The notes under the pieces were generated by a model that searched no databases, had not been told where the DNA came from, and saw only the letters and a list, made by a program, of their open reading frames with translations. Positions 6,870 to 46,891 of a stretch of 64,000 bases of DNA are shown here, piece by piece. A program made the position numbers and the translations under genes. The first letter of the stretch is position 1. The number at the start of each line of letters is the position of its first letter. The stretch is from Escherichia phage vB_EcoM_PhAPEC2: sequence record NC_024794.1; one strand, 5' to 3'.

Positions 6870-8441
6870 ATGAAATTTAATATCTTAAGTTTGTTTGCTC
6901 CATGGGCAAAAATGGACGAACGTGATTACAAAGACCAAGAAAAAGAAAATTTAGAATCGATCACCTCACCAAAATTAGATGACGGCGCTAAAGAATACGA
7001 AGTATCTGAAAATGAAGCACAGCAAACATATAATGCTATGTTTCAGAGAATGTTCGGTAGTCAAGAACCAGGGCTCAAATCAACCCGTGAATTAATCGAT
7101 ACGTATCGAAATTTGATGACGAACTATGAAGTGGATAATGCAGTCTCTGAAATAGTTTCCGATGCTATTGTATATGAAGATGATACAGAAGTCGTTTCTA
7201 TAAATTTAGACAACACAAAATTTAGTCCAAATATAAAATCAATGGTGTTGGATGAATTTAACGAAGTGTTGAATCATTTATCTTTCCAACGTAAAGGTTC
7301 AGACCATTTTAGGCGTTGGTATGTAGATTCTCGAATTTTCTTCCATAAAATTATTGACCCTAAACGCCCTAAAGAAGGTATTAAAGAGCTTCGTCGTTTA
7401 GACCCACGTCAAGTTCAATATGTCCGTGAAGTTATTACAACCACTGAAGCCGGTGTTAAAATAGTCAAGGGTTATAAAGAATATTTCATTTATGACACAT
7501 CACACGAATCTTATGCTTGTGATGGACGCATATATGAAGCTGGCACAAAAATAAAAATCCCTAAAGCCGCGATTGTTTATGCCCATTCTGGTTTAGTCGA
7601 TTGTTGTGGTAAAAATATCATTGGTTATTTGCATCGGGCTATTAAGCCGGCGAACCAATTAAAACTTCTTGAAGACGCCGTCGTAATTTATCGTATTACT
7701 CGTGCTCCCGATCGTCGTGTATGGTACGTTGATACAGGTAATATGCCTTCAAGAAAAGCAGCAGAACATATGCAACATGTTATGAATACGATGAAAAACC
7801 GTATTGCATATGATGCTACTACAGGCAAGATTAAAAACCAGCAGCATATTATGTCGATGACCGAAGATTATTGGTTACAACGACGTGATGGTAAAGCAGT
7901 AACAGAAGTTGATACATTACCAGGTGCAGATAATACTGGAAATATGGAAGATGTACGTTGGTTCCGTAATGCGCTTTATATGGCTTTACGTATTCCTATT
8001 ACCCGTATTCCAAGTGACCAAGGTGGTATACAGTTTGATGCTGGTACTTCTATTACACGAGATGAATTGACATTTGGCAAATTTATTCGTGAGCTGCAAC
8101 ATAAATTTGAAGAGATATTCCTAGACCCGCTTAAAACCAATTTAATTCTTAAAGGAATTATTACAGAAGATGAGTGGAATGATGAAATAAATAATATTAA
8201 GATAAAATTTCATCGGGATAGTTATTTCTCGGAATTAAAGGATGCTGAGATTCTGGAGCGTCGCATTAATATGCTTCAGATGGCCGAACCATTTATTGGT
8301 AAATATATTTCTCACAGAACAGCTATGAAAGATATTCTTCAGATGTCTGACGAGGAAATTGAACAAGAGGCTAAGCAAATTGAAGAAGAGTCGAAAGAGG
8401 CTCGTTTCCAAGACCCCGACCAAGAACAAGAGGATTTTTAA
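6870..8441 (+). CDS. 20: portal vertex protein gp20
   Basis: 523 aa; position/length match T4 gp20. Confidence 0.9.
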
Positions 8442-35199: not shown

Positions 35200-35448
35200 T
35201 TACTTCAGGGTAATAACAAAATGACGTACTGCTTTACGAGCCGCAGAAGCCAAAGGCTTAGCATATTTCAGTTCATCTTTTGCTTCCAGTTCAGAGGCCA
35301 ATACAGCTTGGGCAGGGTTCAGATGTTTGAAATAACGCAGGATTTCCAATGCTTCGGCTTCAACATCAATAGATGCACCGTAGTTTTCGTGACCATTATT
35401 CCATGCGTTTCGTTGCAGTTCAAGAGCGTGTTGTAATTGTTTAATCAT
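35200..35448 (-). CDS. rIII: rIII lysis-inhibition accessory protein
   Basis: 82 aa, same length and position (downstream of gene 31) as T4 rIII. Confidence 0.85.
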   Translation of the reverse strand: MIKQLQHALELQRNAWNNGHENYGASIDVEAEALEILRYFKHLNPAQAVLASELEAKDELKYAKPLASAARKAVRHFVITLK

Positions 35449-35572
35449 TTTAAATTCTCAATTCGAGATAATATTTAGTAGCCACGTTCGTCTGAATTTC
35501 ACCTTCTTTCGACAAGTCTCTCAGTTGTAGGCTACCGCTTAGAAGAGTGTTCTCTTCATATAGTTATTTATA

Positions 35573-35905
35573 TCACTTATAAAGACACGGAATAGCTTTA
35601 TAGTGGCATGTTACGAATTTCTGTTTAATTTCTTTAGGTTGTTTAAGTCCCAAAGCCACAAATGGATGTGGAACATTTCGAATTTGTCCAACTGGTAGTG
35701 GAGTCAAATCACCGACTTCAACAAAACCTTCAGGAACATCAGGACCTACAGAATGAACTACACATAGTTCAGGAACTTCACCTTGAACACGTTTACCAAT
35801 CACAAGTCCTGATTCGGTAACTTCTTCATCACCTGCTTGAGCGGGTTCAGAAACCAGAATGACATATTCACCAACAGCACGAATTGGGAGTTGTACTTCA
35901 GACAT
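35573..35905 (-). CDS. 31: gp31 co-chaperonin (GroES analogue)
   Basis: 110 aa; matches remembered T4 gp31 ([29 protein letters not shown]...). Confidence 0.95.
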
Positions 35906-35935
35906 CTTATTTCCTTGTTGTTTGACGATAGATTA

Positions 35936-35961
35936 ATAATACCATACTATTCGTAAAGCAT
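35936..35961 (-). promoter_or_regulatory. candidate MotA-dependent middle promoter for gene 31
   Basis: Minus strand ATGCTTTAC - 11 nt - TATTAT. Confidence 0.4.
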
Positions 35962-35962
35962 A

Positions 35963-36271
35963 TTACATAAGAAGCAAACGTTCTACCGGAGTACCATCAA
36001 CAGAAATTACTTTATCAAGGCGGAAAGAACGCCACTGACCTAACTCGGTATCGAATGCTCTAACTGATTCACGAGGTTCATAACGAACTTCTGTTGCCGG
36101 ATTGTTATTTTCATATTTGACTTCAAGTTCATCGCGCGAAGCAAACATAGTGCGTACCTCGCCGTTAGCCTTTTCAAATACAACACAATGAACGCCTACA
36201 GACAGAATAGTTTTAATACGTTCACGAAGAACCATAGTTTCTTGTTCAGTTAAAATCATATTATTCACCAC
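35963..36271 (-). CDS. hypothetical protein (T4 31.1 position)
   Basis: 102 aa ORF between cd and gene 31. Confidence 0.6.
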   Translation of the reverse strand: MVNNMILTEQETMVLRERIKTILSVGVHCVVFEKANGEVRTMFASRDELEVKYENNNPATEVRYEPRESVRAFDTELGQWRSFRLDKVISVDGTPVERLLLM

Positions 36272-36842
36272 AAAAGTTTCGGATTTGTTCCCAATTCAGA
36301 GAACGAAGATTATTACGAGAGTACTGAATTACTTCAATACCAGCTTGTTTTAGAATGTCTGCCCAATTTTCAGGAGACCGGTCATATAATTCTGCATATA
36401 CAACCTTTTTAATACCTGACTGTGTAATAGCTTTAGTGCAATCAGGACATGGAGAAAGCGTCGTATACAACGTAGCACCTTCAATAGAATTACCTTTACG
36501 AGCTGCAAACAAAATTGCATTCAATTCCGCATGGATTTCATTATTAGCAGACCATGCACTATGAGCGGCCCGATGTTCTTTAGCCAAAACAAAATTATCC
36601 ACCCGTCCAAATGCTGTAGTGCCTTCTTTATGCCCAGCAACGATGACCGGGCTTGGTTTATTCTTCAACCAACCGTTTTCGGATGCATGTTCGCAACAGT
36701 TTGTACCACCTGAAGGAGAGCCATTATAACCTGTAGAAATAATGCGTCCATCTTTTTCAATGACGGCACCAACTTTCCATGAACAACATTTTGATTCTTG
36801 AGAAATCAGATATGCAATCTGAAGGTATGTGCTAGCTTTCAT
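36261..36842 (-). CDS. cd: dCMP deaminase
   Basis: 193 aa; zinc-binding HAE...PCxxC deaminase motifs; same length as T4 Cd. Confidence 0.92.
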   Translation of the reverse strand: MKASTYLQIAYLISQESKCCSWKVGAVIEKDGRIISTGYNGSPSGGTNCCEHASENGWLKNKPSPVIVAGHKEGTTAFGRVDNFVLAKEHRAAHSAWSANNEIHAELNAILFAARKGNSIEGATLYTTLSPCPDCTKAITQSGIKKVVYAELYDRSPENWADILKQAGIEVIQYSRNNLRSLNWEQIRNFCGE

Positions 36843-37834
36843 TATTGAACCTTATTAATATAAGTTAACAGCTCTTTAGTTTGTTCCCAACTGATGCACG
36901 CATCGGTAATGGAAACGCCATAGGACATATTATCAGAAATTTTTTGATTTCCTTCATGTAGGAATGATTCTATCATAATTCCTTTGACCAAATCATTAGC
37001 TGCTAAATTTTTACCAATACCAATTTGATTGCTATAATGCCCATCAGCGTTTGCATGGCTACAGTCAACCATTACATAATGATTCAGACCTACTGCCCTT
37101 GCTTTGTTAGAAGCTTCTTGAATATCAGAAGAATGATAGTTCGGGCCGTTGGTCCCGCCACGCAATACGATATGCGTATTCTGATTACCTTCAGCTTCAA
37201 CAATGCCTACAGTACCATCGACGTCCATACCCATATACCGATGAGGCCAGGCGGCACTATACATCGCGTCTGTAGCTACTTTAATAGAACCATTGGTTGC
37301 GTTCTTGAAGCCTACGCACATCGGTAGACCTGAAGCAATTTCACGATGTGTCTGACTTTCAGTCGTACGGGCGCCAATAGCAACCCATGAGAAAATACCA
37401 GAAAGATACTTAATCGTGAATGGGTCTAATACTTCAGTTGCTAATGGAAGTCCCATACGTAGAAGTTTACGACACAATGTTCGTGCAACTATAAGACCGT
37501 GGTTCATATCAAAACTTCCGTCAAGATATGGATCATTTACAAGACCTTTCCAACCTACGGTAGTTCGAGGCTTTTCAAAATAAACGCGCATCACTAACAG
37601 AACATTAGGAAGACGAGTTTGAAGTTCAGCCAGACGTTTGCCGTATTCAACAGCAGCAATAGGGTCATGAATTGAACAAGGACCTACAACAATAAGTTTG
37701 CGTGGGTCTTCACCATTCATAATCGAATTAACTTGTTCGCGATGAGAAGCCACTTGTGATGCGTAAGCTTCCGACAAAGGAATAATCTCAGCCAGTTCTT
37801 TTGGAGAAATAAGTTTTCCGACGACAGGTAACAT
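36842..37834 (-). CDS. 3-deoxy-7-phosphoheptulonate (DAHP) synthase, class I-alpha AroG/AroF-like
   Basis: 330 aa; GPCSIHD, KPRTTVGWKGL, IGARTTESQ, DCSHAN, ESFLHEGNQ, SITDAC align with remembered E. coli AroG; TAATG overlap with cd. Confidence 0.85.
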   Translation of the reverse strand: MLPVVGKLISPKELAEIIPLSEAYASQVASHREQVNSIMNGEDPRKLIVVGPCSIHDPIAAVEYGKRLAELQTRLPNVLLVMRVYFEKPRTTVGWKGLVNDPYLDGSFDMNHGLIVARTLCRKLLRMGLPLATEVLDPFTIKYLSGIFSWVAIGARTTESQTHREIASGLPMCVGFKNATNGSIKVATDAMYSAAWPHRYMGMDVDGTVGIVEAEGNQNTHIVLRGGTNGPNYHSSDIQEASNKARAVGLNHYVMVDCSHANADGHYSNQIGIGKNLAANDLVKGIMIESFLHEGNQKISDNMSYGVSITDACISWEQTKELLTYINKVQ

Positions 37835-37954
37835 AACAATCCTTAGGAGATATAAACAGATTCTGATTCAACAATACCTTTAACCGGATTAGACAGGCTA
37901 AGTTGGTAGTGCTCAGATTTATGACCATTCTCGATAGTAATTAGATAGCTCTCA

Positions 37955-38191
37955 TTATAGTGTTCCATATACTCGAGTTGCTTCAACAAGACCATCACTG
38001 CCTAATTTAAGATTAGTAATTTGGTCACCATCTTTAGGATTAACGATTATGAGAAAAGAACGTGGAGATTCTTGAATAACTCGTAATGTTGCATCCTGGA
38101 AACGTTCAGATACTTTATTAATCAAAGTCTGAGCGAACTCTTTTACTTTAACATGAAATTCTTGAAGCGTGATAGGTTTTTCACTTAACAT
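37955..38191 (-). CDS. hypothetical protein
   Basis: 78 aa ORF; SD GAGGAA; early promoter upstream. Confidence 0.6.
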   Translation of the reverse strand: MLSEKPITLQEFHVKVKEFAQTLINKVSERFQDATLRVIQESPRSFLIIVNPKDGDQITNLKLGSDGLVEATRVYGTL

Positions 38192-38220
38192 TCTGTTTTC
38201 CTCATTGTGTTGGTAGAGTC

Positions 38221-38250
38221 ATAGTATCACAACTCCACCATGTTGTAAAC
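38221..38250 (-). promoter_or_regulatory. T4 early-type promoter (GTTTACA-N17-TACTAT)
   Basis: Minus strand GTTTACAACATGGTGGAGTTGTGATACTAT. Confidence 0.55.
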
Positions 38251-38252
38251 CA

Positions 38253-38528
38253 TTAAATTGCTTTGCATTCAATTTTTTGTGTACCGAAATTGATATCACA
38301 TTGGATAACTAAATCGCCGTCAAGATCAAATACCACGATGACGTGTGCAGACCCAGGGAGAAGAGTAATAGCAATAGAGTCTACTTGGCCTGGGAGCAAA
38401 GCATTGAGTACATGAGTTACTTGAGCATGAACTCTGAGTTCGGCCGCATTATCAAGCACTTCAAACATATTATTAGCAATAATCTGACTGAAGACTACCT
38501 TTACAATTTCAGAATAAGTTGGGAACAT
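38253..38528 (-). CDS. hypothetical protein
   Basis: 91 aa ORF. Confidence 0.55.
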   Translation of the reverse strand: MFPTYSEIVKVVFSQIIANNMFEVLDNAAELRVHAQVTHVLNALLPGQVDSIAITLLPGSAHVIVVFDLDGDLVIQCDINFGTQKIECKAI

Positions 38529-38535
38529 AATTACC

Positions 38536-38760
38536 TCAGTGCACAGTATTTACTTTAACTCGAACAACAAATCGCTCGGTCGGTTCACCTACAGGAACAA
38601 ACTCTACATGATATTCACCTTTGTAACGAGTATTCAGATCATTACGAATTTCGGTAAGCTTGTTGATTAATGTAGAACTCATATTAAGTCCCACTAGTTT
38701 ACGAAGCATTTTGTATGCTTCATCTTCGATTTCATGATGTTTATCGTACATAGTTTTCAT
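38536..38760 (-). CDS. hypothetical protein
   Basis: 74 aa ORF. Confidence 0.55.
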   Translation of the reverse strand: MKTMYDKHHEIEDEAYKMLRKLVGLNMSSTLINKLTEIRNDLNTRYKGEYHVEFVPVGEPTERFVVRVKVNTVH

Positions 38761-38931
38761 TTAACCATTCAATTGCCTGGTCAACGTTATCAAATATACC
38801 GCCGTCCAAACGTTCTTCATGCTCATAGTCCAGCACATCAATACCGAACTGTCCATTTACTAAAGGCCAGGCTACAAACAAATATTCTTTATGCTGTTCG
38901 ATGGCCTCAATCACTTCATATAATCGTTTCA

Positions 38932-38932
<1 letters not shown>
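38741..38932 (-). CDS. hypothetical protein
   Basis: 63 aa ORF overlapping neighbours. Confidence 0.5.
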
Positions 38933-40018
<1,086 letters not shown>

Positions 40019-40318: not shown

Positions 40319-40375
40319 TTAGATTTCCTCAATTATCCATAGGAGCATTATACTCTGCTCCCGAGAGTTTGTAAA

Positions 40376-42966: not shown

Positions 42967-43376
42967 TACTTTTTCTTATGTTGGATATTCCAAGGCGGGT
43001 TGAACTTTTTGATAAAAAGCGGTTCTTCAAGGTCCATTGTTGCGATGGTCATTGAACCAAGTTCGTTGGTGACTGAAAGGTCAAAACATTGGCGGGCCCA
43101 GAATTCAACCTTTTTTCCTTGCATTAAGGCATCCAAAATCATAAGTGATTTTCTTGAATCTGAAGTCTGGTCTTTTCGATTTATGGCTGTTCGATAATAG
43201 TTAATGCGTTTCTTTAAATTCTTGGTTTTACCAATATACACAAGTTCGTCATCTATAGCAATAGCGTATATGACATTTTTCTTATTAGGGACATCAACTG
43301 TTTTAATTGTTGCATCTTCTAATAGCTCCAATTCTGTATATTTAATAAAGGAATATTCGGCGGCAATATCTTTCAT
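42966..43376 (-). CDS. denA: endonuclease II (GIY-YIG)
   Basis: 136 aa, same length as T4 DenA; GIY-YIG-like VIYAIAIDDELVYIGKT. Confidence 0.9.
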   Translation of the reverse strand: MKDIAAEYSFIKYTELELLEDATIKTVDVPNKKNVIYAIAIDDELVYIGKTKNLKKRINYYRTAINRKDQTSDSRKSLMILDALMQGKKVEFWARQCFDLSVTNELGSMTIATMDLEEPLFIKKFNPPWNIQHKKK

Positions 43377-43384
43377 AATAAAGT

Positions 43385-43398
43385 GGGACCGAAGTCCC
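43385..43398 (-). terminator. tetraloop hairpin between nrdB and denA
   Basis: gggac-cgaa-gtccc. Confidence 0.45.
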
Positions 43399-43402
43399 GT
43401 CC

Positions 43403-44581
43403 TTAGAAATATTTTTTGTATGAATTGATTACATTTTGGTCTACATCATTATCAATTTGTGCGACAAGATAAGAACTGATTTCAACTTCCTGAGGAGCTG
43501 CTTGAACTAAATCAGAGTTCAGATATTCACGAATCCAAGGATACGGATGCTTGGTCGGAGCATCAGTGATTGGGCATGGCAAACCACACTGTTTCATACG
43601 AGACACAGTCAAGTAATCAACAAAAGCACACATACTCTGTGTATTGATACCCGGACATGTACCGTCTTTAAAGAGGTGTGCAGCCCATTCCTTCTCTTGT
43701 CTATTTACTTCCATAAAAATGTCAACTGCTTCTTGTTCACATTCTTTAGCAATTTGAACCCACTCATCACCATCGGTACCGGACTGAAGTTGACGGATAA
43801 TGTACTGAGTACCCTTGAGGTGGAGTTGTTCGTCACGAGCGATGAACTTCATAATCTTTGCATTACCTTCCATGATTTCCATGTTCTTATGGAAGTTGAA
43901 AGTACATGCAAAAGATACATAAAAACGAATAGCTTCTAAGGCGTTAATAACGTGTAAGCAGAGATAAAGAGACTTCATTAATGCACGTTTACATTCTTCC
44001 AAATGCATAAGACTATTTGAATATGCATCCAAATCATATTCATTTTCGGAAAAACATTTAAAAATTTCTTTAGCATTTTCCCATTCACGTGTTTTAACTA
44101 GAACATCATCATAATATTTGCCGATTGATTCCGCACGTTTCATAATTGCTTCATCTAATACAATCTCATCAAATACCTTCGATGGATCAGTATAAAGATT
44201 TCGCATAATATGAGTATATGAACGAGAGTGAATAGTTTCACTGAATGTCCATGTAGCAACCCATGTATCTAATGAAGGGTCAGAAATCAGTGCCATAAGT
44301 ACCGCAGATGGGGCCCTGCCTTGGATAGAATCTAATAATGATTGATACTTAAGGTTGTTTGTAAAGATGTCCTGTTGGAACTGAGGAAGCTTATTGAACT
44401 GCGCAGAGTCCAACATCAAGTTTACCTCTTCAGGGCGCCAGAAAAATGACAATTGCTTTTCGGTCAAATCTTCAAAAACTTTATGGCGTTGAATATCATA
44501 ACGCGCAATACCAAGACCTGAACCAAAAAACATAGGTTCTTTTAAAACATCGACTTGTTGTGTGTTAAAAACGGTACTCAT
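43403..44581 (-). CDS. nrdB: ribonucleotide reductase beta subunit (NrdB), uninterrupted
   Basis: 392 aa continuous ORF with diiron ligand motifs; no intron. Confidence 0.93.
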   Translation of the reverse strand: MSTVFNTQQVDVLKEPMFFGSGLGIARYDIQRHKVFEDLTEKQLSFFWRPEEVNLMLDSAQFNKLPQFQQDIFTNNLKYQSLLDSIQGRAPSAVLMALISDPSLDTWVATWTFSETIHSRSYTHIMRNLYTDPSKVFDEIVLDEAIMKRAESIGKYYDDVLVKTREWENAKEIFKCFSENEYDLDAYSNSLMHLEECKRALMKSLYLCLHVINALEAIRFYVSFACTFNFHKNMEIMEGNAKIMKFIARDEQLHLKGTQYIIRQLQSGTDGDEWVQIAKECEQEAVDIFMEVNRQEKEWAAHLFKDGTCPGINTQSMCAFVDYLTVSRMKQCGLPCPITDAPTKHPYPWIREYLNSDLVQAAPQEVEISSYLVAQIDNDVDQNVINSYKKYF

Positions 44582-44635
44582 TATATTTTCTCACTTAGTT
44601 TTAACTCATCCATGAGTAAATTATAATCAAAAGTC

Positions 44636-46891
44636 TTAAAGCTTACAAGCAGAGCAATCTTCAGCTTTAGGTGTTTCTAATTCATAGTCATCTGTACCTG
44701 ACCCATCACGAGTGTTATGATAGTAGAGATTTTTTCCGCCAAAGTACCAGAAGTAAAGCAGATCGTCAAGCATTACTGACATTGGCACTTTACCTTTCTC
44801 AAAGACTGAAGGGTCGTAGTATGTATTAGCAGAAGCAGATTGGCACACCCATTTTAACATGATAACAACTTGTGTCAGATAAGGCTTATTACCTTTCTTA
44901 GCGAGTTTCCACGCATAGTCATAAAGACCCATGTTGTGTTCAATATTAGGAACTACTTGACGGAAATTACCTTCTTTAGATTCTTTAATACTTACTGGGC
45001 CACGAGGTGGTTCAATACCATTTGTGCTATTTGAGACCTGGCTGCTTGATTCGCATGGCATGAGAGCACTGAGTGTACTGTTACGGATCCCGTGTTCTTT
45101 AAGTTCGGCTCGTAGTTCTTCCCAGTCACAGACATAGTTCGGGGCTGCGATTTGGTCAATCTTTTTATTGTACCAGTCGATAGGTAATTCGCCTCTAGAC
45201 CATTTAGTGTCTGAATAATACTCGCAACGTCCTTTTTCTTTGGCAAGTTTGATTGACGCTTTGATAAGGCCATATTGTAATCTCTCAAACAATTCATGAG
45301 TCAAATCGTTAGCATCTTCGTATGAAGCAAAGTTAGAAGCCAACCAGGCTGCATAGTTAGTAACACCAACACCTAGGTTTCGACGCTTTTTAGCTTTTAA
45401 AGCTTCTGGAACCGGATAGTCTTGATAGTCTAACAAGTTATCAAGTGCACGTACTTGCACTTCAGCAAGTTCATTAATTTTATCTTGGTCTTGCCAATCA
45501 AATTTATCAAGAACAAAAGCAGAAAGAGTGCATAAACCAATTTCAGCATCAGGACCATTCACATCATTAGTTGGAATAGCGATTTCACAACATAAGTTAC
45601 TCTGACGAATTGGAGCTTTTTCACGAATAAATGGAGTGTAGTTATTCGTGTTATCAACAAACTGTGGATAAATTCGAGCAGTGCCAGAACGTTCAGTCAT
45701 GAACAATTCAAAGAGTTCTAGTGCTTTGATTCTTTTCTTTCTGATTGTTGGGTCTTTTTCAGCTTTCTCATAAAGCTCACGGAATTTATCTTGATCTTCA
45801 AAGAATGAGTAATATAGTTCGCCTGACATTTCGTGAGGGCTAAATAAAGTAATATAATCATTTTTACCAAGGCGTTCCATCATAAGGTCATTAATCTGAA
45901 TTCCGTAGTCCATATGTCGAATACGGTTTTCATCCACACCTTTGTTATTTTTCAGAACTAATAGGTTCTCTACTTCTAAGTGCCACATCGGATAATACGC
46001 TGTAGCAGCACCGCCGCGAATACCACCTTGAGAACAAGATTTTACTGCAGTTTGGAAATGTTTCCAGAATGGAATAACACCTGTATGTCGAACTTCACCC
46101 ATACCGATCTTAGAACCTTCTGCACGAAGCATGCCAACGTTGATACCGATACCAGCTCGTTTAGAAATATATTCGATAATTGATGCTGAAGTTTTGTTAA
46201 TAGATTTTAACGAATCACCGGCTTCAATAACTACACAACTAGAGAACTGGCGAGTCGGAGTACGAGCACCTGCCATAATTGGAGTAGGCAATGAAACTTG
46301 ATGAGTAGAAACGGCATCATAAAAACGAATAATATGTTTCAAACGGTCACGAGTTTCGTCTTGATGTAAAGCCATACCAATAGCCATGATAGCAAACTGT
46401 GGAGTTTCATAAATCTTCCCAGTTGTTTTATCTTTAACTAGATATTTTTCTTTAAGCTGCATAGCACCAGCATAAGTCAGGTCAAAGTCTCGTTCGTGTT
46501 TAATCTGTGAATCGAGATAAATGATTTCTTCTGCTGAATATTGAGACAACAACTCAGGGTCATATTTGCCTTCATTAACACAATAAGAAATATGGTCGAT
46601 AAAAGCAGGAGGTTCAAACTGACCATACACATCTTTACGAAGTGCAAACATTAGCCCTTTGGCGGCGACATACTGATAATCAGGTTCTTCGACAGAAATC
46701 GAGTTAGCTGCAACTTTAATACAAATCTTCTGGATATCTTTGGTGCTCATCCCATCGACAAGATGGGTCTTAATTTCTTCGTACAATTCATATGGGTCAA
46801 TTTGTGTTCCTTCACATTGCCAAGTTAAGACTTGAATAATTTTCTGTGCATCAAAATTTTGGGATACACCACTGCTCTTAGTTACTTGCAT
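44636..46891 (-). CDS. nrdA: ribonucleotide reductase alpha subunit (NrdA)
   Basis: 751 aa; ATP-cone N-terminus; class Ia RNR. Confidence 0.93.
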   Translation of the reverse strand: MQVTKSSGVSQNFDAQKIIQVLTWQCEGTQIDPYELYEEIKTHLVDGMSTKDIQKICIKVAANSISVEEPDYQYVAAKGLMFALRKDVYGQFEPPAFIDHISYCVNEGKYDPELLSQYSAEEIIYLDSQIKHERDFDLTYAGAMQLKEKYLVKDKTTGKIYETPQFAIMAIGMALHQDETRDRLKHIIRFYDAVSTHQVSLPTPIMAGARTPTRQFSSCVVIEAGDSLKSINKTSASIIEYISKRAGIGINVGMLRAEGSKIGMGEVRHTGVIPFWKHFQTAVKSCSQGGIRGGAATAYYPMWHLEVENLLVLKNNKGVDENRIRHMDYGIQINDLMMERLGKNDYITLFSPHEMSGELYYSFFEDQDKFRELYEKAEKDPTIRKKRIKALELFELFMTERSGTARIYPQFVDNTNNYTPFIREKAPIRQSNLCCEIAIPTNDVNGPDAEIGLCTLSAFVLDKFDWQDQDKINELAEVQVRALDNLLDYQDYPVPEALKAKKRRNLGVGVTNYAAWLASNFASYEDANDLTHELFERLQYGLIKASIKLAKEKGRCEYYSDTKWSRGELPIDWYNKKIDQIAAPNYVCDWEELRAELKEHGIRNSTLSALMPCESSSQVSNSTNGIEPPRGPVSIKESKEGNFRQVVPNIEHNMGLYDYAWKLAKKGNKPYLTQVVIMLKWVCQSASANTYYDPSVFEKGKVPMSVMLDDLLYFWYFGGKNLYYHNTRDGSGTDDYELETPKAEDCSACKL

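What the first reader, a model, noticed from the sequence alone, without database searches (positions are those of the whole stretch)
36842..37834. Phage-encoded AroG-type DAHP synthase inside the nucleotide-metabolism early operon
A full-length class I-alpha DAHP synthase sits between cd and the small ORFs preceding pseT, where I do not recall T4 having such a gene. All the AroG-type signature motifs I checked are present, so it looks catalytically competent, and its AT-rich composition matches the phage. Its stop overlaps the cd start (TAATG), which suggests co-expression with early nucleotide-metabolism genes. DAHP synthase is the first committed step of the shikimate pathway; a phage copy could keep chorismate/aromatic supply going or escape Phe/Tyr/Trp feedback. 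Whether this is already described in related phages I cannot tell without a search.
Basis: partly seen in the sequence, partly recalled or inferred. Interest (0 to 1): 0.78.

Follow-up and report, generated by a model that had tools for sequence, protein, structure and literature searches.

The report
Phage DAHP synthase lacking feedback site
This T4-like phage really does carry an intact gene for the first enzyme of aromatic amino-acid synthesis; the gene is already annotated in over 200 phage genomes, but its feedback-inhibition pocket has been systematically rewritten, so it probably runs unchecked during infection.

Summary
Window 36842..37834 (minus strand) encodes a 330-aa type I-alpha DAHP synthase, and its TAA stop overlaps the cd ATG (TAATG). 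All metal, PEP and KPRTT residues are intact. The AlphaFold model (pLDDT 91) superposes on solved DAHP synthases at TM 0.95.

It is not new as an object. An identical protein is in GenBank, 211 phage records carry a homolog, PHROGs has a family for it (phrog_5045), and two papers mention it in passing. I found no experimental work.

What I add:
- The 25 T4-like phage copies form a clade with 200/200 bootstrap support, only about 50% identical to host AroF/G/H.
- The only six clade-diagnostic substitutions in the whole protein all lie in the allosteric element: P150I, Q151K, D155G, S180P, F209Y, T223A (AroG numbering). The N-terminal Asp6/Asp7 segment is also missing.
- Three of them hit positions of published feedback-resistant alleles: AroG P150L, AroG S180F and yeast Aro4 Q166K.
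- The gene lies on a 1.1-kb cassette flanked by a 13-nt direct repeat. The cassette is absent from RB69.

Best reading: a naturally feedback-insensitive DAHP synthase that keeps the shikimate pathway open during infection. This is inferred, not shown.

The parts
36842..37834 (-). DAHP synthase CDS (330 aa, type I-alpha, phrog_5045)
   Evidence: AlphaFold model pLDDT 91; Foldseek TM 0.95 to solved DAH7PS structures.
37840..37844 (-). Shine-Dalgarno-like AAGGA, 5 nt upstream of the DAHPS ATG
   Evidence: Read directly from the sequence.
36840..36844 (-). TAATG: the DAHPS stop overlaps the cd start by one base
   Evidence: Read directly from the sequence.
37397..37426 (-). Codons for residues 137-146 (DPFTIKYLSG), the alpha3 helix of the former inhibitor pocket. 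It carries I141 (AroG P150), K142 (AroG Q151 = Aro4 Q166) and G146 (AroG D155).
   Evidence: These residues are invariant in 24-25 of 25 phage copies, against P 88/98, Q 98/98 and D 96/98 in bacteria.
37322..37324 (-). Codon for P171 (AroG S180, the Ser that binds the inhibitor main chain)
   Evidence: P in 25/25 phage copies, S in 96/98 bacterial. S180F is a published feedback-resistant allele (PMC9529685).
37193..37237 (-). Codons for residues 200-214 (beta6a/beta6b regulatory hairpin), with Y200 (AroG F209) and A214 (AroG T223)
   Evidence: Y in 25/25 against F in 98/98; A in 25/25 against T in 98/98.
36846..37945 (.). 1,100-bp cassette (DAHPS plus the small ORF) absent from phage RB69, whose flanks are 96% identical
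   Evidence: blastn of window against RB69; RB69 annotation shows cd abutting cd.2.
36833..36845 (-). Right copy of the 13-nt direct repeat, ATAATGAAAGCTA (DAHPS end / cd start)
37946..37958 (-). Left copy of the 13-nt direct repeat, ATAATGAGAGCTA (cd.2 stop plus a vestige of the cd start)
   Evidence: RB69 has a single copy at its cd.2/cd junction.
37843..37968 (-). 41-aa ORF (phrog_15876), a relic of the C-terminal half of a foreign cd.2-type gene, carried in with the cassette
   Evidence: It is 51% identical (E=1e-6) to the C-terminus of the cd.2-like protein of Kanagawavirus CIP9, against E=0.06 to the window's own cd.2.
36261..36842 (-). cd (dCMP deaminase), translationally coupled downstream gene, probably imported together with DAHPS
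   Evidence: The cd protein is 83.5% identical to CIP9 and 80.1% to the Klebsiella phage, against 71.5% to T4. gp31 and pseT group with T4 instead.
38221..38249 (-). Sigma-70-like promoter candidate (TTTACA-17-TACTAT with TG) in the only sizeable intergenic gap upstream, between cd.3 and cd.2
   Evidence: It is a consensus match only, and the count of such matches is not above chance.
40347..40375 (-). Strongest sigma-70-like promoter candidate upstream (TTTACA-17-TATAAT, 11 of 12 matches)
   Evidence: No terminator-like site lies on the minus strand between here and 35400.

Best explanation
The gene encodes a catalytically active type I-alpha DAHP synthase (PEP + erythrose-4-phosphate -> DAHP). 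In a clade of T4-like phages of Enterobacterales, this enzyme has lost the aromatic-amino-acid feedback site of its cellular relatives. It is transcribed with the pseT-cd-31 block and translationally coupled to cd. It would then feed carbon into the host's shikimate pathway whatever the Phe/Tyr/Trp levels, at a time when host DAHP synthases are feedback-inhibited and can no longer be resynthesised. That would sustain chorismate supply for aromatic amino acids and possibly for chorismate-derived cofactors such as folate. Shown here: identity, intact active site, fold, clade structure, purifying selection, rewriting of the pocket, and the cassette structure. Inferred: enzymatic activity, insensitivity to inhibitors, expression timing, and the benefit to the phage.
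For: Identity: TIGR00034 428 bits (cut-off 173) and PRK12755 455 bits (cut-off 343). The best solved relative is E. coli AroF 6AGM, E=7e-105. The model has pLDDT 91 and TM 0.95 to DAH7PS crystal structures, with the beta6a/beta6b hairpin present.

Active site: C61, H268, E302, D326, R92, K97, A164, R165, K186, R234 and KPRTT are conserved in 25/25 phage copies.

Selection: dN/dS between genera is 0.14-0.23 with dS saturated.

Allosteric site: only six positions in the whole alignment are fixed differently between 25 phage and 98 bacterial sequences. They are P150I, Q151K, D155G, S180P, F209Y and T223A. Five of the six lie in my a-priori 20-site pocket list (P=2.8e-6). Four of the six lie in the independently published 9-site inhibitor list (P=3.8e-6). 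The Asp6/Asp7 N-terminal segment is absent in 25/25.

Published mutant data: AroG P150L is completely Phe-resistant. S180F and F209A/S are resistant. Q151 and S180 bind the inhibitor main chain (PMC9529685). Aro4 Q166K is listed as feedback-resistant (PMC5879953), and Aro4 Q166 aligns with AroG Q151 and phage K142. [quoted passage not shown]

Independent case: Aeromonas phage HJ05 carries a separately acquired homolog that keeps all catalytic residues but has A150, H151, P155, P180 and V209.

Demand: the window's long ORFs contain F 4.36%, Y 4.06% and W 1.40%. That is higher in Phe and Tyr than the E. coli proteome as I recall it (about 3.9, 2.8 and 1.5%).

Expression context: an SD is present, the stop overlaps the cd start, and there is no same-strand terminator-like site.
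Against: No enzyme assay, transcript or proteome data was found for any phage copy.

The gene is dispensable. RB69 and about 10 other Mosigvirus records lack the cassette, and T4 has never had it, so any benefit is conditional.

The rewritten pocket is more conserved in phages than in bacteria (mean entropy 0.34 against 0.73; residues 131-170 score 0.00-0.20). Simple loss of a site would be expected to relax constraint, so the pocket may have acquired a new role.

The phage substitutions are not identical to the characterised alleles (I rather than L at position 150; P rather than F at 180). Only Q->K matches exactly, and that allele was described in yeast.

D146, L179 and G178 of the pocket are retained.

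The 98 'bacterial' sequences are just the best-scoring hits of one word-indexed search, not a full sample. The details of AroF N8K and N-terminal truncation come from my memory; only the title of that paper was seen.
Confidence: 0.62

Rival explanations
1. The pocket has not been lost but retuned. The enzyme would be allosterically controlled by a different small molecule relevant to phage development, for example a nucleotide or a folate- or chorismate-derived metabolite, or by a phage or host protein partner.
For: The six diagnostic substitutions are fixed in 24-25 of 25 copies across genera only 56-77% identical. The alpha3/loop region (residues 131-170) is almost invariant in phages (entropy 0.00-0.20) and is more constrained than in bacteria. 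The change Q->K adds a positive charge and D155->G removes a negative one, which would suit an anionic ligand. The neighbouring, translationally coupled cd is itself an allosteric enzyme regulated by dCTP and hm-dCTP, according to the RB69 record's annotation note.
Against: There is no direct evidence for any ligand. Conservation could equally reflect structural compensation at the dimer interface after loss of the N-terminal segment, or locking of the active conformation. The independent HJ05 copy uses different residues (H151, P155, V209), which argues for loss rather than a shared new specificity.
Confidence: 0.13
2. It is an ordinary feedback-regulated isozyme, most likely Tyr-sensitive like AroF. 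It would simply raise DAHP synthase dosage after host gene expression is shut off.
For: The closest E. coli paralog is AroF (51% identity). The protein scores above the PRK12755 cut-off. Gly at the AroG-S211 position is the Tyr-type residue. D146, P147 (as in AroF), L179 and G178 are retained.
Against: Q151, S180, F209 and D155 are each 96-100% conserved in the 98 bacterial enzymes, and all four are replaced, together with P150 and the N-terminal cap. Single substitutions at three of these positions abolish inhibition in the characterised enzymes.
Confidence: 0.15
3. The protein is a passenger with little or no function in this phage. It would be a hitch-hiking cassette kept by linkage to cd, or a protein that moonlights in something unrelated to DAHP synthesis.
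For: There is presence/absence polymorphism within Mosigvirus. The gene lies in a hyperplastic region full of small ORFs of unknown function. Within Mosigvirus there are 10 or fewer substitutions, so dN/dS there is uninformative (0.3-1.8).
Against: The reading frame is intact and every catalytic residue is kept in 25/25 copies across at least six genera. Inter-genus dN/dS is 0.14-0.23. Codon composition is fully ameliorated to the phage (GC3 0.29). DAHPS divergence tracks that of the essential neighbours. About 138 of roughly 149 Mosigvirus-level records retain it. There is no match to defence-system models.
Confidence: 0.08

Closest known systems
E. coli AroF (Tyr-sensitive DAHP synthase, PDB 6AGM), with AroG and AroH (type I-alpha)
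   Same: Same fold (TM 0.95 to AroG and N. meningitidis structures). Same metal site (Cys-His-Glu-Asp). Same PEP and E4P motifs (KPRTT, GARTTESQ). The beta6a/beta6b hairpin is retained. Sequence identity is 51%, 47% and 44% to AroF, AroG and AroH.
   Different: The phage protein is 8-10 residues shorter at the N-terminus and lacks the Asp/Asn 6-7 cap. Inhibitor-contact residues Q151, S180, F209, D155 and P150 are replaced by K, P, Y, G and I. Two short C-terminal deletions are present. It scores below the AroG-specific and AroH-specific model cut-offs. It forms a separate clade (200/200 bootstrap) that is not nested in enterobacterial isozymes.
Engineered or selected feedback-resistant DAHP synthases (AroG P150L, S180F, F209S, D146N; AroF P148L; yeast Aro4 Q166K, K229L; N-terminally engineered AroG)
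   Same: The same positions are hit (150, 151, 180, 209 and the N-terminus). The Q->K change is identical to Aro4 Q166K.
   Different: These are laboratory single mutants. The phage enzyme combines five or six changes plus the N-terminal truncation, fixed by natural selection across genera. D146 is unchanged. The phenotype of the phage enzyme has not been measured.
phrog_5045, the 'phospho-2-dehydro-3-deoxyheptonate aldolase' of T4-like phages (e.g. HX01, APCEc01, Shf125875, phiC120, Kanagawavirus KLB31/CIP9, Klebsiella, Serratia X20 and Proteus PM2 phages)
   Same: The window protein is a member (E=3e-182, full length). Identical proteins exist in phages TU01 and AV115. The gene order pseT ... 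DAHPS ... cd ... 31 is the same.
   Different: Nothing substantive. In this Mosigvirus lineage the gene lies on a 1.1-kb cassette with a cd.2 relic and 13-nt flanking repeats.
Classical phage auxiliary metabolic genes (e.g. T4 td/frd/nrd nucleotide genes; cyanophage psbA, talC)
   Same: A host-type metabolic enzyme encoded in a lytic phage, at a flux-controlling step, and expressed with early genes.
   Different: It targets amino-acid and chorismate supply rather than nucleotides or photosynthesis. The apparent adaptation is removal of allosteric control rather than a change in catalysis.

Membership tests
Type I-alpha DAHP synthase (AroF/G/H family, TIGR00034 / PF00793) | Profile score above the curated cut-off | tested here: met
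   TIGR00034 427.9 bits against 173.2; PRK12755 455.3 against 343; PF00793 252.6 against 25.5.
Type I-alpha DAHP synthase (AroF/G/H family, TIGR00034 / PF00793) | Metal ligands Cys61, His268, Glu302, Asp326 (AroG numbering) | tested here: met
   Window residues C53, H260, E289, D311. Conserved in 25/25 phage copies and 98/98 bacterial.
Type I-alpha DAHP synthase (AroF/G/H family, TIGR00034 / PF00793) | PEP and E4P binding residues (R92, K97, A164, R165, K186, R234; KPRTT motif) | tested here: met
   All are present and invariant.
Type I-alpha DAHP synthase (AroF/G/H family, TIGR00034 / PF00793) | (beta/alpha)8 barrel with the beta6a/beta6b insertion | tested here: met
   Model pLDDT 91, with strands 198-203 and 209-214. 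Foldseek TM 0.95, rmsd 1.8 A to 4HSO, 8E0U and 1KFL.
Type I-alpha DAHP synthase (AroF/G/H family, TIGR00034 / PF00793) | N-terminal extension plus the aromatic-amino-acid inhibitor pocket (Q151, S180, F209, D155, P150, D/N6-7) | tested here: not met
   K142, P171, Y200, G146 and I141 replace them, and the residues equivalent to 1-9 are absent. This is a regulatory feature, not a catalytic one.
Type I-alpha DAHP synthase (AroF/G/H family, TIGR00034 / PF00793) | Catalyses PEP + E4P -> DAHP | not testable with these tools
   Needs an enzyme assay or complementation of an aroFGH mutant.
AroG, Phe-sensitive isozyme (NCBIfam NF006723 equivalog) | Score above the equivalog cut-off | tested here: not met
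   363.4 bits against a cut-off of 568. Ser211 is replaced by Gly.
AroH, Trp-sensitive isozyme (NCBIfam NF009396) | Score above the subfamily cut-off | tested here: not met
   386.9 bits against a cut-off of 463.
Phage DAHP synthase family phrog_5045 | Full-length match to the PHROG profile, in a phage genome | tested here: met
   E=2.8e-182, residues 1-330 on profile positions 8-337 of 341. 211 phage records carry a homolog.
Auxiliary metabolic gene (AMG) | A host-type metabolic gene flanked on both sides by bona fide viral genes | tested here: met
   pseT and the cd.x ORFs lie upstream; cd, 31.1, gene 31 and rIII lie downstream.
Auxiliary metabolic gene (AMG) | Expressed during infection and alters host metabolism | not tested
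   No transcriptome, proteome or metabolome data was found. Only an SD, translational coupling and the absence of a terminator are seen.

The most novel reading that the evidence does not exclude
T4-like phages carry a naturally evolved, multiply 'de-regulated' DAHP synthase. Its former Phe/Tyr pocket is not merely broken but rebuilt and held under strong constraint. That could lock the enzyme permanently on, or make it answer to a phage-relevant effector, which would tie shikimate, chorismate and folate supply to phage DNA synthesis. This would be a case of a virus editing the allosteric wiring of a host enzyme rather than its chemistry. It would also provide a ready-made feedback-resistant enzyme for metabolic engineering.
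Probability: 0.55. Interest if true: 0.55.

Novelty: already known. Interest (0 to 1): 0.4.

Why it matters
The gene itself is already catalogued, so finding it is not a discovery. What could matter is the pattern inside it.

- The only substitutions that separate the phage clade from cellular enzymes are the ones that metabolic engineers introduce to abolish feedback inhibition.
- If biochemistry confirms this, it is a clean example of a phage AMG whose adaptive change is removal or rewiring of allosteric control at the gate of a pathway.
- It gives a concrete, testable reason why some T4-like phages carry the gene: infection in environments rich in aromatic amino acids, such as the gut, where host DAHP synthases are shut down.
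- Natural isogenic comparators already exist, namely RB69-type phages with the cassette precisely deleted.
- It offers a natural feedback-resistant type I-alpha enzyme for production of aromatic compounds.

Tried and rejected
- **Recent capture from the enterobacterial host: rejected.** Identity to AroF, AroG and AroH is 51%, 47% and 44%. The phage clade is a 200/200 bootstrap bipartition, roughly equidistant (about 0.75) from all bacterial hits. GC3 is 0.29.
- **Recent sweep between phage genera: rejected.** DAHPS identity (77/68/67/58%) tracks cd (79/77/69/62%).
- **KDO8P synthase (same Pfam family): not supported.** No KdsA model appears among the NCBIfam hits, and the I-alpha-specific models score far above their cut-offs.
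- **Link to a defence or anti-defence system:** no PADLOC match.
- **Structured RNA or intron in the region:** Rfam found nothing in the whole window at gathering thresholds. It also found nothing at E<=0.1 in 43300-45800.
- **Other 'phage' homologs as independent cases: mostly discarded.** CAKLQH020000056.1 is a bacterial contig with cob genes. OR851216.1 is 91% identical to AroH, so it is host DNA. MT837410 and MT838377 are unverified 5-7 kb virome scaffolds. Only Aeromonas phage HJ05 was kept.
- **Selection within Mosigvirus: uninformative.** There are 10 or fewer differences per pair.
- **Promoter scan: no enrichment.** 18 sites were found against 17.4 expected, so the named sites are candidates only.
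- **First tree attempt:** the Biopython run timed out and was redone with a numpy neighbour-joining script.
- **Literature:** ten full-text searches found no biochemical or genetic study of a phage DAHP synthase. The details of the AroF N8K and N-terminal truncation work (Jossek et al. 2001) could not be read; only the title was seen in reference lists.
Full report
**1. Observation**

It occupies window 36842..37834 on the minus strand, has an ATG start and encodes 330 aa. Read on the minus strand, an AAGGA Shine-Dalgarno lies 5 nt before the ATG. The TAA stop shares its last A with the ATG of the next gene, giving TAATG at 36840-36844.

The downstream gene is dCMP deaminase (cd, 36261..36842). 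The upstream genes are small T4-type ORFs (cd.2, cd.3 and cd.4 homologues) and polynucleotide kinase pseT (38932..39831).

GC content is 0.411 against 0.382 for the window. GC3 is 0.294, against 0.259 for cd and 0.334 for pseT. The gene is therefore fully adapted to phage composition.

**2. Identity**

The protein matches Pfam DAHP_synth_1 at E=4e-75. It matches the NCBIfam aroFGH equivalog TIGR00034 at 428 bits (cut-off 173) and PRK12755 at 455 bits (cut-off 343). It falls below the AroG-specific cut-off (363 against 568) and the AroH-specific cut-off (387 against 463).

The best solved relative is E. coli AroF, PDB 6AGM, at E=7e-105. Identity to authentic K-12 AroF, AroG and AroH is 51%, 47% and 44%.

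The metal ligands and PEP/E4P residues are all present. In AroG numbering these are C61, H268, E302, D326, R92, K97, A164, R165, K186, R234 and the KPRTT motif. They are invariant in all 25 phage-clade sequences examined.

An AlphaFold2 model has pLDDT 91 and pTM 0.91. It superposes on crystal structures of N. meningitidis and E. coli DAH7PS at TM 0.95 and rmsd 1.8 A. So the protein is a type I-alpha DAHP synthase with an intact active site. 'AroG-type' is correct only at that class level.

**3. Is it already known?**

Yes.
- PHROGs holds a family for it: phrog_5045, 'phospho-2-dehydro-3-deoxyheptonate aldolase', category moron/AMG, E=3e-182.
- A tblastn search of 50,697 phage records finds 211 records with a full-length homolog. 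Of these, 138 are at 95% identity or more, and the proteins of phages TU01 and AV115 are 100% identical.
- Many records name it DAHP synthase, AroG or aroF.
- The window is from a Mosigvirus (RB69-like) phage.
- Two papers mention the gene in passing as a putative AMG. These are PMC11845039 (Kanagawavirus KLB31) and PMC8022965 (phiC120).
- Ten full-text searches found no biochemical or genetic characterisation.

**4. Distribution and evolution**

The gene occupies the same slot (pseT ... DAHPS ... cd ... 31) in several lineages:
- Kanagawavirus CIP9, 77% identity;
- a Klebsiella phage, 68%;
- Winklervirus X20, 67%;
- Bragavirus PM2, 58%;
- metagenomic T4-like contigs.

A T4-species phage (RB55) has the unrelated cd.1 there instead.

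I aligned the window protein, E. coli AroF/G/H and the 120 best database hits. In a neighbour-joining tree of that alignment, the 25 phage copies form a bipartition in 200 of 200 bootstraps. They are about equally distant (Kimura distance about 0.75) from all bacterial sequences. This rules out recent capture from the host.

Between genera, dN/dS is 0.14-0.23 with saturated dS. DAHPS identity tracks that of neighbouring core enzymes. Both indicate long residence under purifying selection.

**5. The cassette**

RB69, the type Mosigvirus, lacks the gene: cd abuts cd.2. blastn shows window 35400-36845 and 37946-39900 are 96% identical to RB69, while 36846-37945 (1,100 bp) is missing from it.

The missing segment is bounded by an imperfect 13-nt direct repeat, ATAATGA(G/A)AGCTA, at 37946-37958 and 36833-36845. 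RB69 has a single copy, at its cd.2-stop/cd-start junction.

Besides DAHPS, the segment holds a 41-aa ORF (37843..37968, phrog_15876). This ORF resembles the C-terminal half of the cd.2-like protein of CIP9 (E=1e-6) and of the Klebsiella phage (E=5e-5). It does not resemble the window's own cd.2 (E=0.06).

The window's cd is also closer to CIP9 (83.5%) and the Klebsiella phage (80.1%) than to T4 (71.5%). gp31 (97% to T4) and pseT (75% to T4) show the opposite pattern, and RB69 shares this cd type.

The simplest history has two steps. First, a [cd.2 fragment-DAHPS-cd] module was imported from a Kanagawavirus-like phage. Second, some lineages lost the 1.1 kb by recombination between the repeats. 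Eleven records have the uninterrupted junction, against about 138 with the cassette. This history is an inference.

**6. The allosteric site (the new result)**

In cellular type I-alpha enzymes, Phe, Tyr or Trp binds about 20 A from the active site. [quoted passage not shown]

I compared the 25 phage sequences with the 98 bacterial ones. Exactly six columns in the whole protein are fixed differently, with at least 92% agreement in phage and at least 88% in bacteria:

| AroG position | Bacteria | Phage clade |
|---|---|---|
| P150 | P 88/98 | I 24/25 |
| Q151 | Q 98/98 | K 24/25 |
| D155 | D 96/98 | G 24/25 |
| S180 | S 96/98 | P 25/25 |
| F209 | F 98/98 | Y 25/25 |
| T223 | T 98/98 | A 25/25 |

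All six lie in that regulatory element. Five of the six fall in my a-priori list of 20 pocket positions (hypergeometric P=2.8e-6). Four of the six fall in the independently published nine-residue inhibitor-site list (P=3.8e-6).

In addition, all 25 phage proteins lack the first 8-10 residues, including the Asp/Asn at positions 6-7 that is D, N or E in all 98 bacterial sequences. The phage proteins have 48-52 residues before Cys61, against 58-95 in bacteria. A longer reading frame is impossible in the window.

Published mutants at these positions:
- AroG P150L is completely Phe-resistant.
- AroG S180F and F209A/S are resistant.
- Q151 and S180 hydrogen-bond the inhibitor main chain.
- Yeast Aro4 Q166K is listed as a feedback-resistant allele. 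I verified against the 1HFB and 1GG1 chain numbering that Aro4 Q166 corresponds to AroG Q151 and phage K142.

The one credible independent phage acquisition is Aeromonas phage HJ05, with a homolog about 37% identical. It also keeps all catalytic residues but has A150, H151, P155, P180 and V209.

**7. Interpretation**

The most likely reading is a constitutively active DAHP synthase that ignores aromatic amino-acid feedback. After infection, host transcription stops and the host isozymes remain feedback-inhibited wherever aromatic amino acids are plentiful. A deregulated phage enzyme would keep DAHP, and hence chorismate, flowing.

Demand is plausible. The window's long ORFs contain 4.4% Phe and 4.1% Tyr, more than I recall for E. 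coli. Chorismate also feeds folate, which the neighbouring td, frd and cd pathway consumes. The folate link is speculation.

One observation does not fit simple loss. The rewritten pocket is more constrained in phages than in bacteria, with entropy 0.34 against 0.73, and residues 131-170 are almost invariant. This suggests either structural locking of the active state or a new effector, and I keep the latter as a rival. Activity, inhibitor insensitivity, expression and benefit to the phage are all inferred, not shown.

**8. Expression context**

No terminator-like site lies on the minus strand between 35400 and 41000. Sigma-70-like candidates lie at 40375..40347 (11 of 12 matches) and in the cd.3/cd.2 gap at 38249..38221. 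However, promoter-like hits are no more frequent than in shuffled sequence. A MotA-box-like pattern is enriched in the window (18 matches against 6.4 expected), with one match inside pseT at 39215-39239.

Co-transcription with pseT, cd and gene 31, and translational coupling to cd, are therefore likely. 'Nucleotide-metabolism operon' overstates the coherence of this block, which also contains alc, rnlA, spanins and gene 31.

**9. Verdict**

This is a real, correctly identified and already catalogued phage AMG, so its novelty as an object is low. The added value is a specific, testable prediction of natural feedback resistance or allosteric rewiring. Natural deletion variants are available as comparators. 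I score interest as moderate (0.4).

Noticed in passing
window 37843-37968 (-): A 41-aa ORF (phrog_15876) between cd.2 and DAHPS looks like a relic of the C-terminal half of a second, foreign cd.2-type gene. It is closest to Kanagawavirus CIP9 and Klebsiella-phage cd.2 proteins. It overlaps the 3' end of the resident cd.2 in another frame.
   Followed up: yes
window 36833-36845 and 37946-37958; L009 (RB69) 7243-7255: A 13-nt imperfect direct repeat, ATAATGA(G/A)AGCTA, flanks the 1.1-kb DAHPS cassette. RB69, mar005P1, JK36, JK42, moha and ECO111 5-P have a single copy and no cassette. These are natural precise-deletion (or empty-site) variants.
   Followed up: yes
window 36261-36842 (-); L009 6674-7255: The Mosigvirus cd protein groups with Kanagawavirus and Klebsiella-phage cd (80-84%) rather than T4 cd (71.5%), unlike the flanking gp31 and pseT, which indicates mosaic exchange. 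In the RB69 record, the cd reading frame appears frameshifted near the C-terminus (…ADILKPSWY* against …ADILKQAGIEV…), which explains its shorter annotation. This could be real or a sequencing error.
   Followed up: partly
L010 (Aeromonas phage HJ05) 4899-6062 and 6196-6546: An unrelated 79-kb Aeromonas phage carries a divergent 387-aa DAHP synthase homolog annotated as hypothetical. Its catalytic residues are intact and its allosteric residues are replaced. It lies immediately upstream of a gene with an Acb2/Tad1 hairpin domain (anti-CBASS/Thoeris sponge family), near a methyltransferase and an Asn-synthase-like gene.
   Followed up: partly
GenBank records CAKLQH020000056.1 (L011), OR851216.1 (L022), MT837410.1 (L020), MT838377.1 (L021): Several records in the phage collection that hit DAHPS are probably not phage. 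The 'Acinetobacter phage MD-2021a' contig carries a cobalamin operon. The 'Salmonella phage S.Kent 1-2-1' contig encodes a protein 91% identical to E. coli AroH. Two gut-virome scaffolds are flagged UNVERIFIED.
   Followed up: partly
annotations under window 36261-39831 in related records: Mis-annotations are propagated in relatives. cd is labelled 'ribD riboflavin biosynthesis protein' and pseT 'zeta toxin' or 'AAA family ATPase' in the O157 typing phages and phi25-307. 31.1 and 31.2 are labelled 'tail fiber protein'. DAHPS is labelled 'hypothetical protein' in many records and 'Tyr-sensitive', which the pocket residues do not support.
   Followed up: no
window 43403-44581 (-) vs L019 (JK45) 43402-45671: nrdB is a single uninterrupted 392-aa ORF in the window. 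In the close relative JK45 it is split by an inserted 'intron-like DNA endonuclease' gene. Rfam finds no intron-like RNA in the window. JK45 is filed under Tequatrovirus in its record, although this region is 97.7% identical to the Mosigvirus-type window.
   Followed up: partly
whole window, e.g. 35936-35960 (-), 39215-39239 (-): The T4 middle-promoter-like pattern TGCTTNA-N10-14-TANNNT occurs 18 times against 6.4 expected (0 of 100 shuffles reach 18). Sixteen of the 18 are on the minus strand, including one just upstream of gene 31.
   Followed up: no
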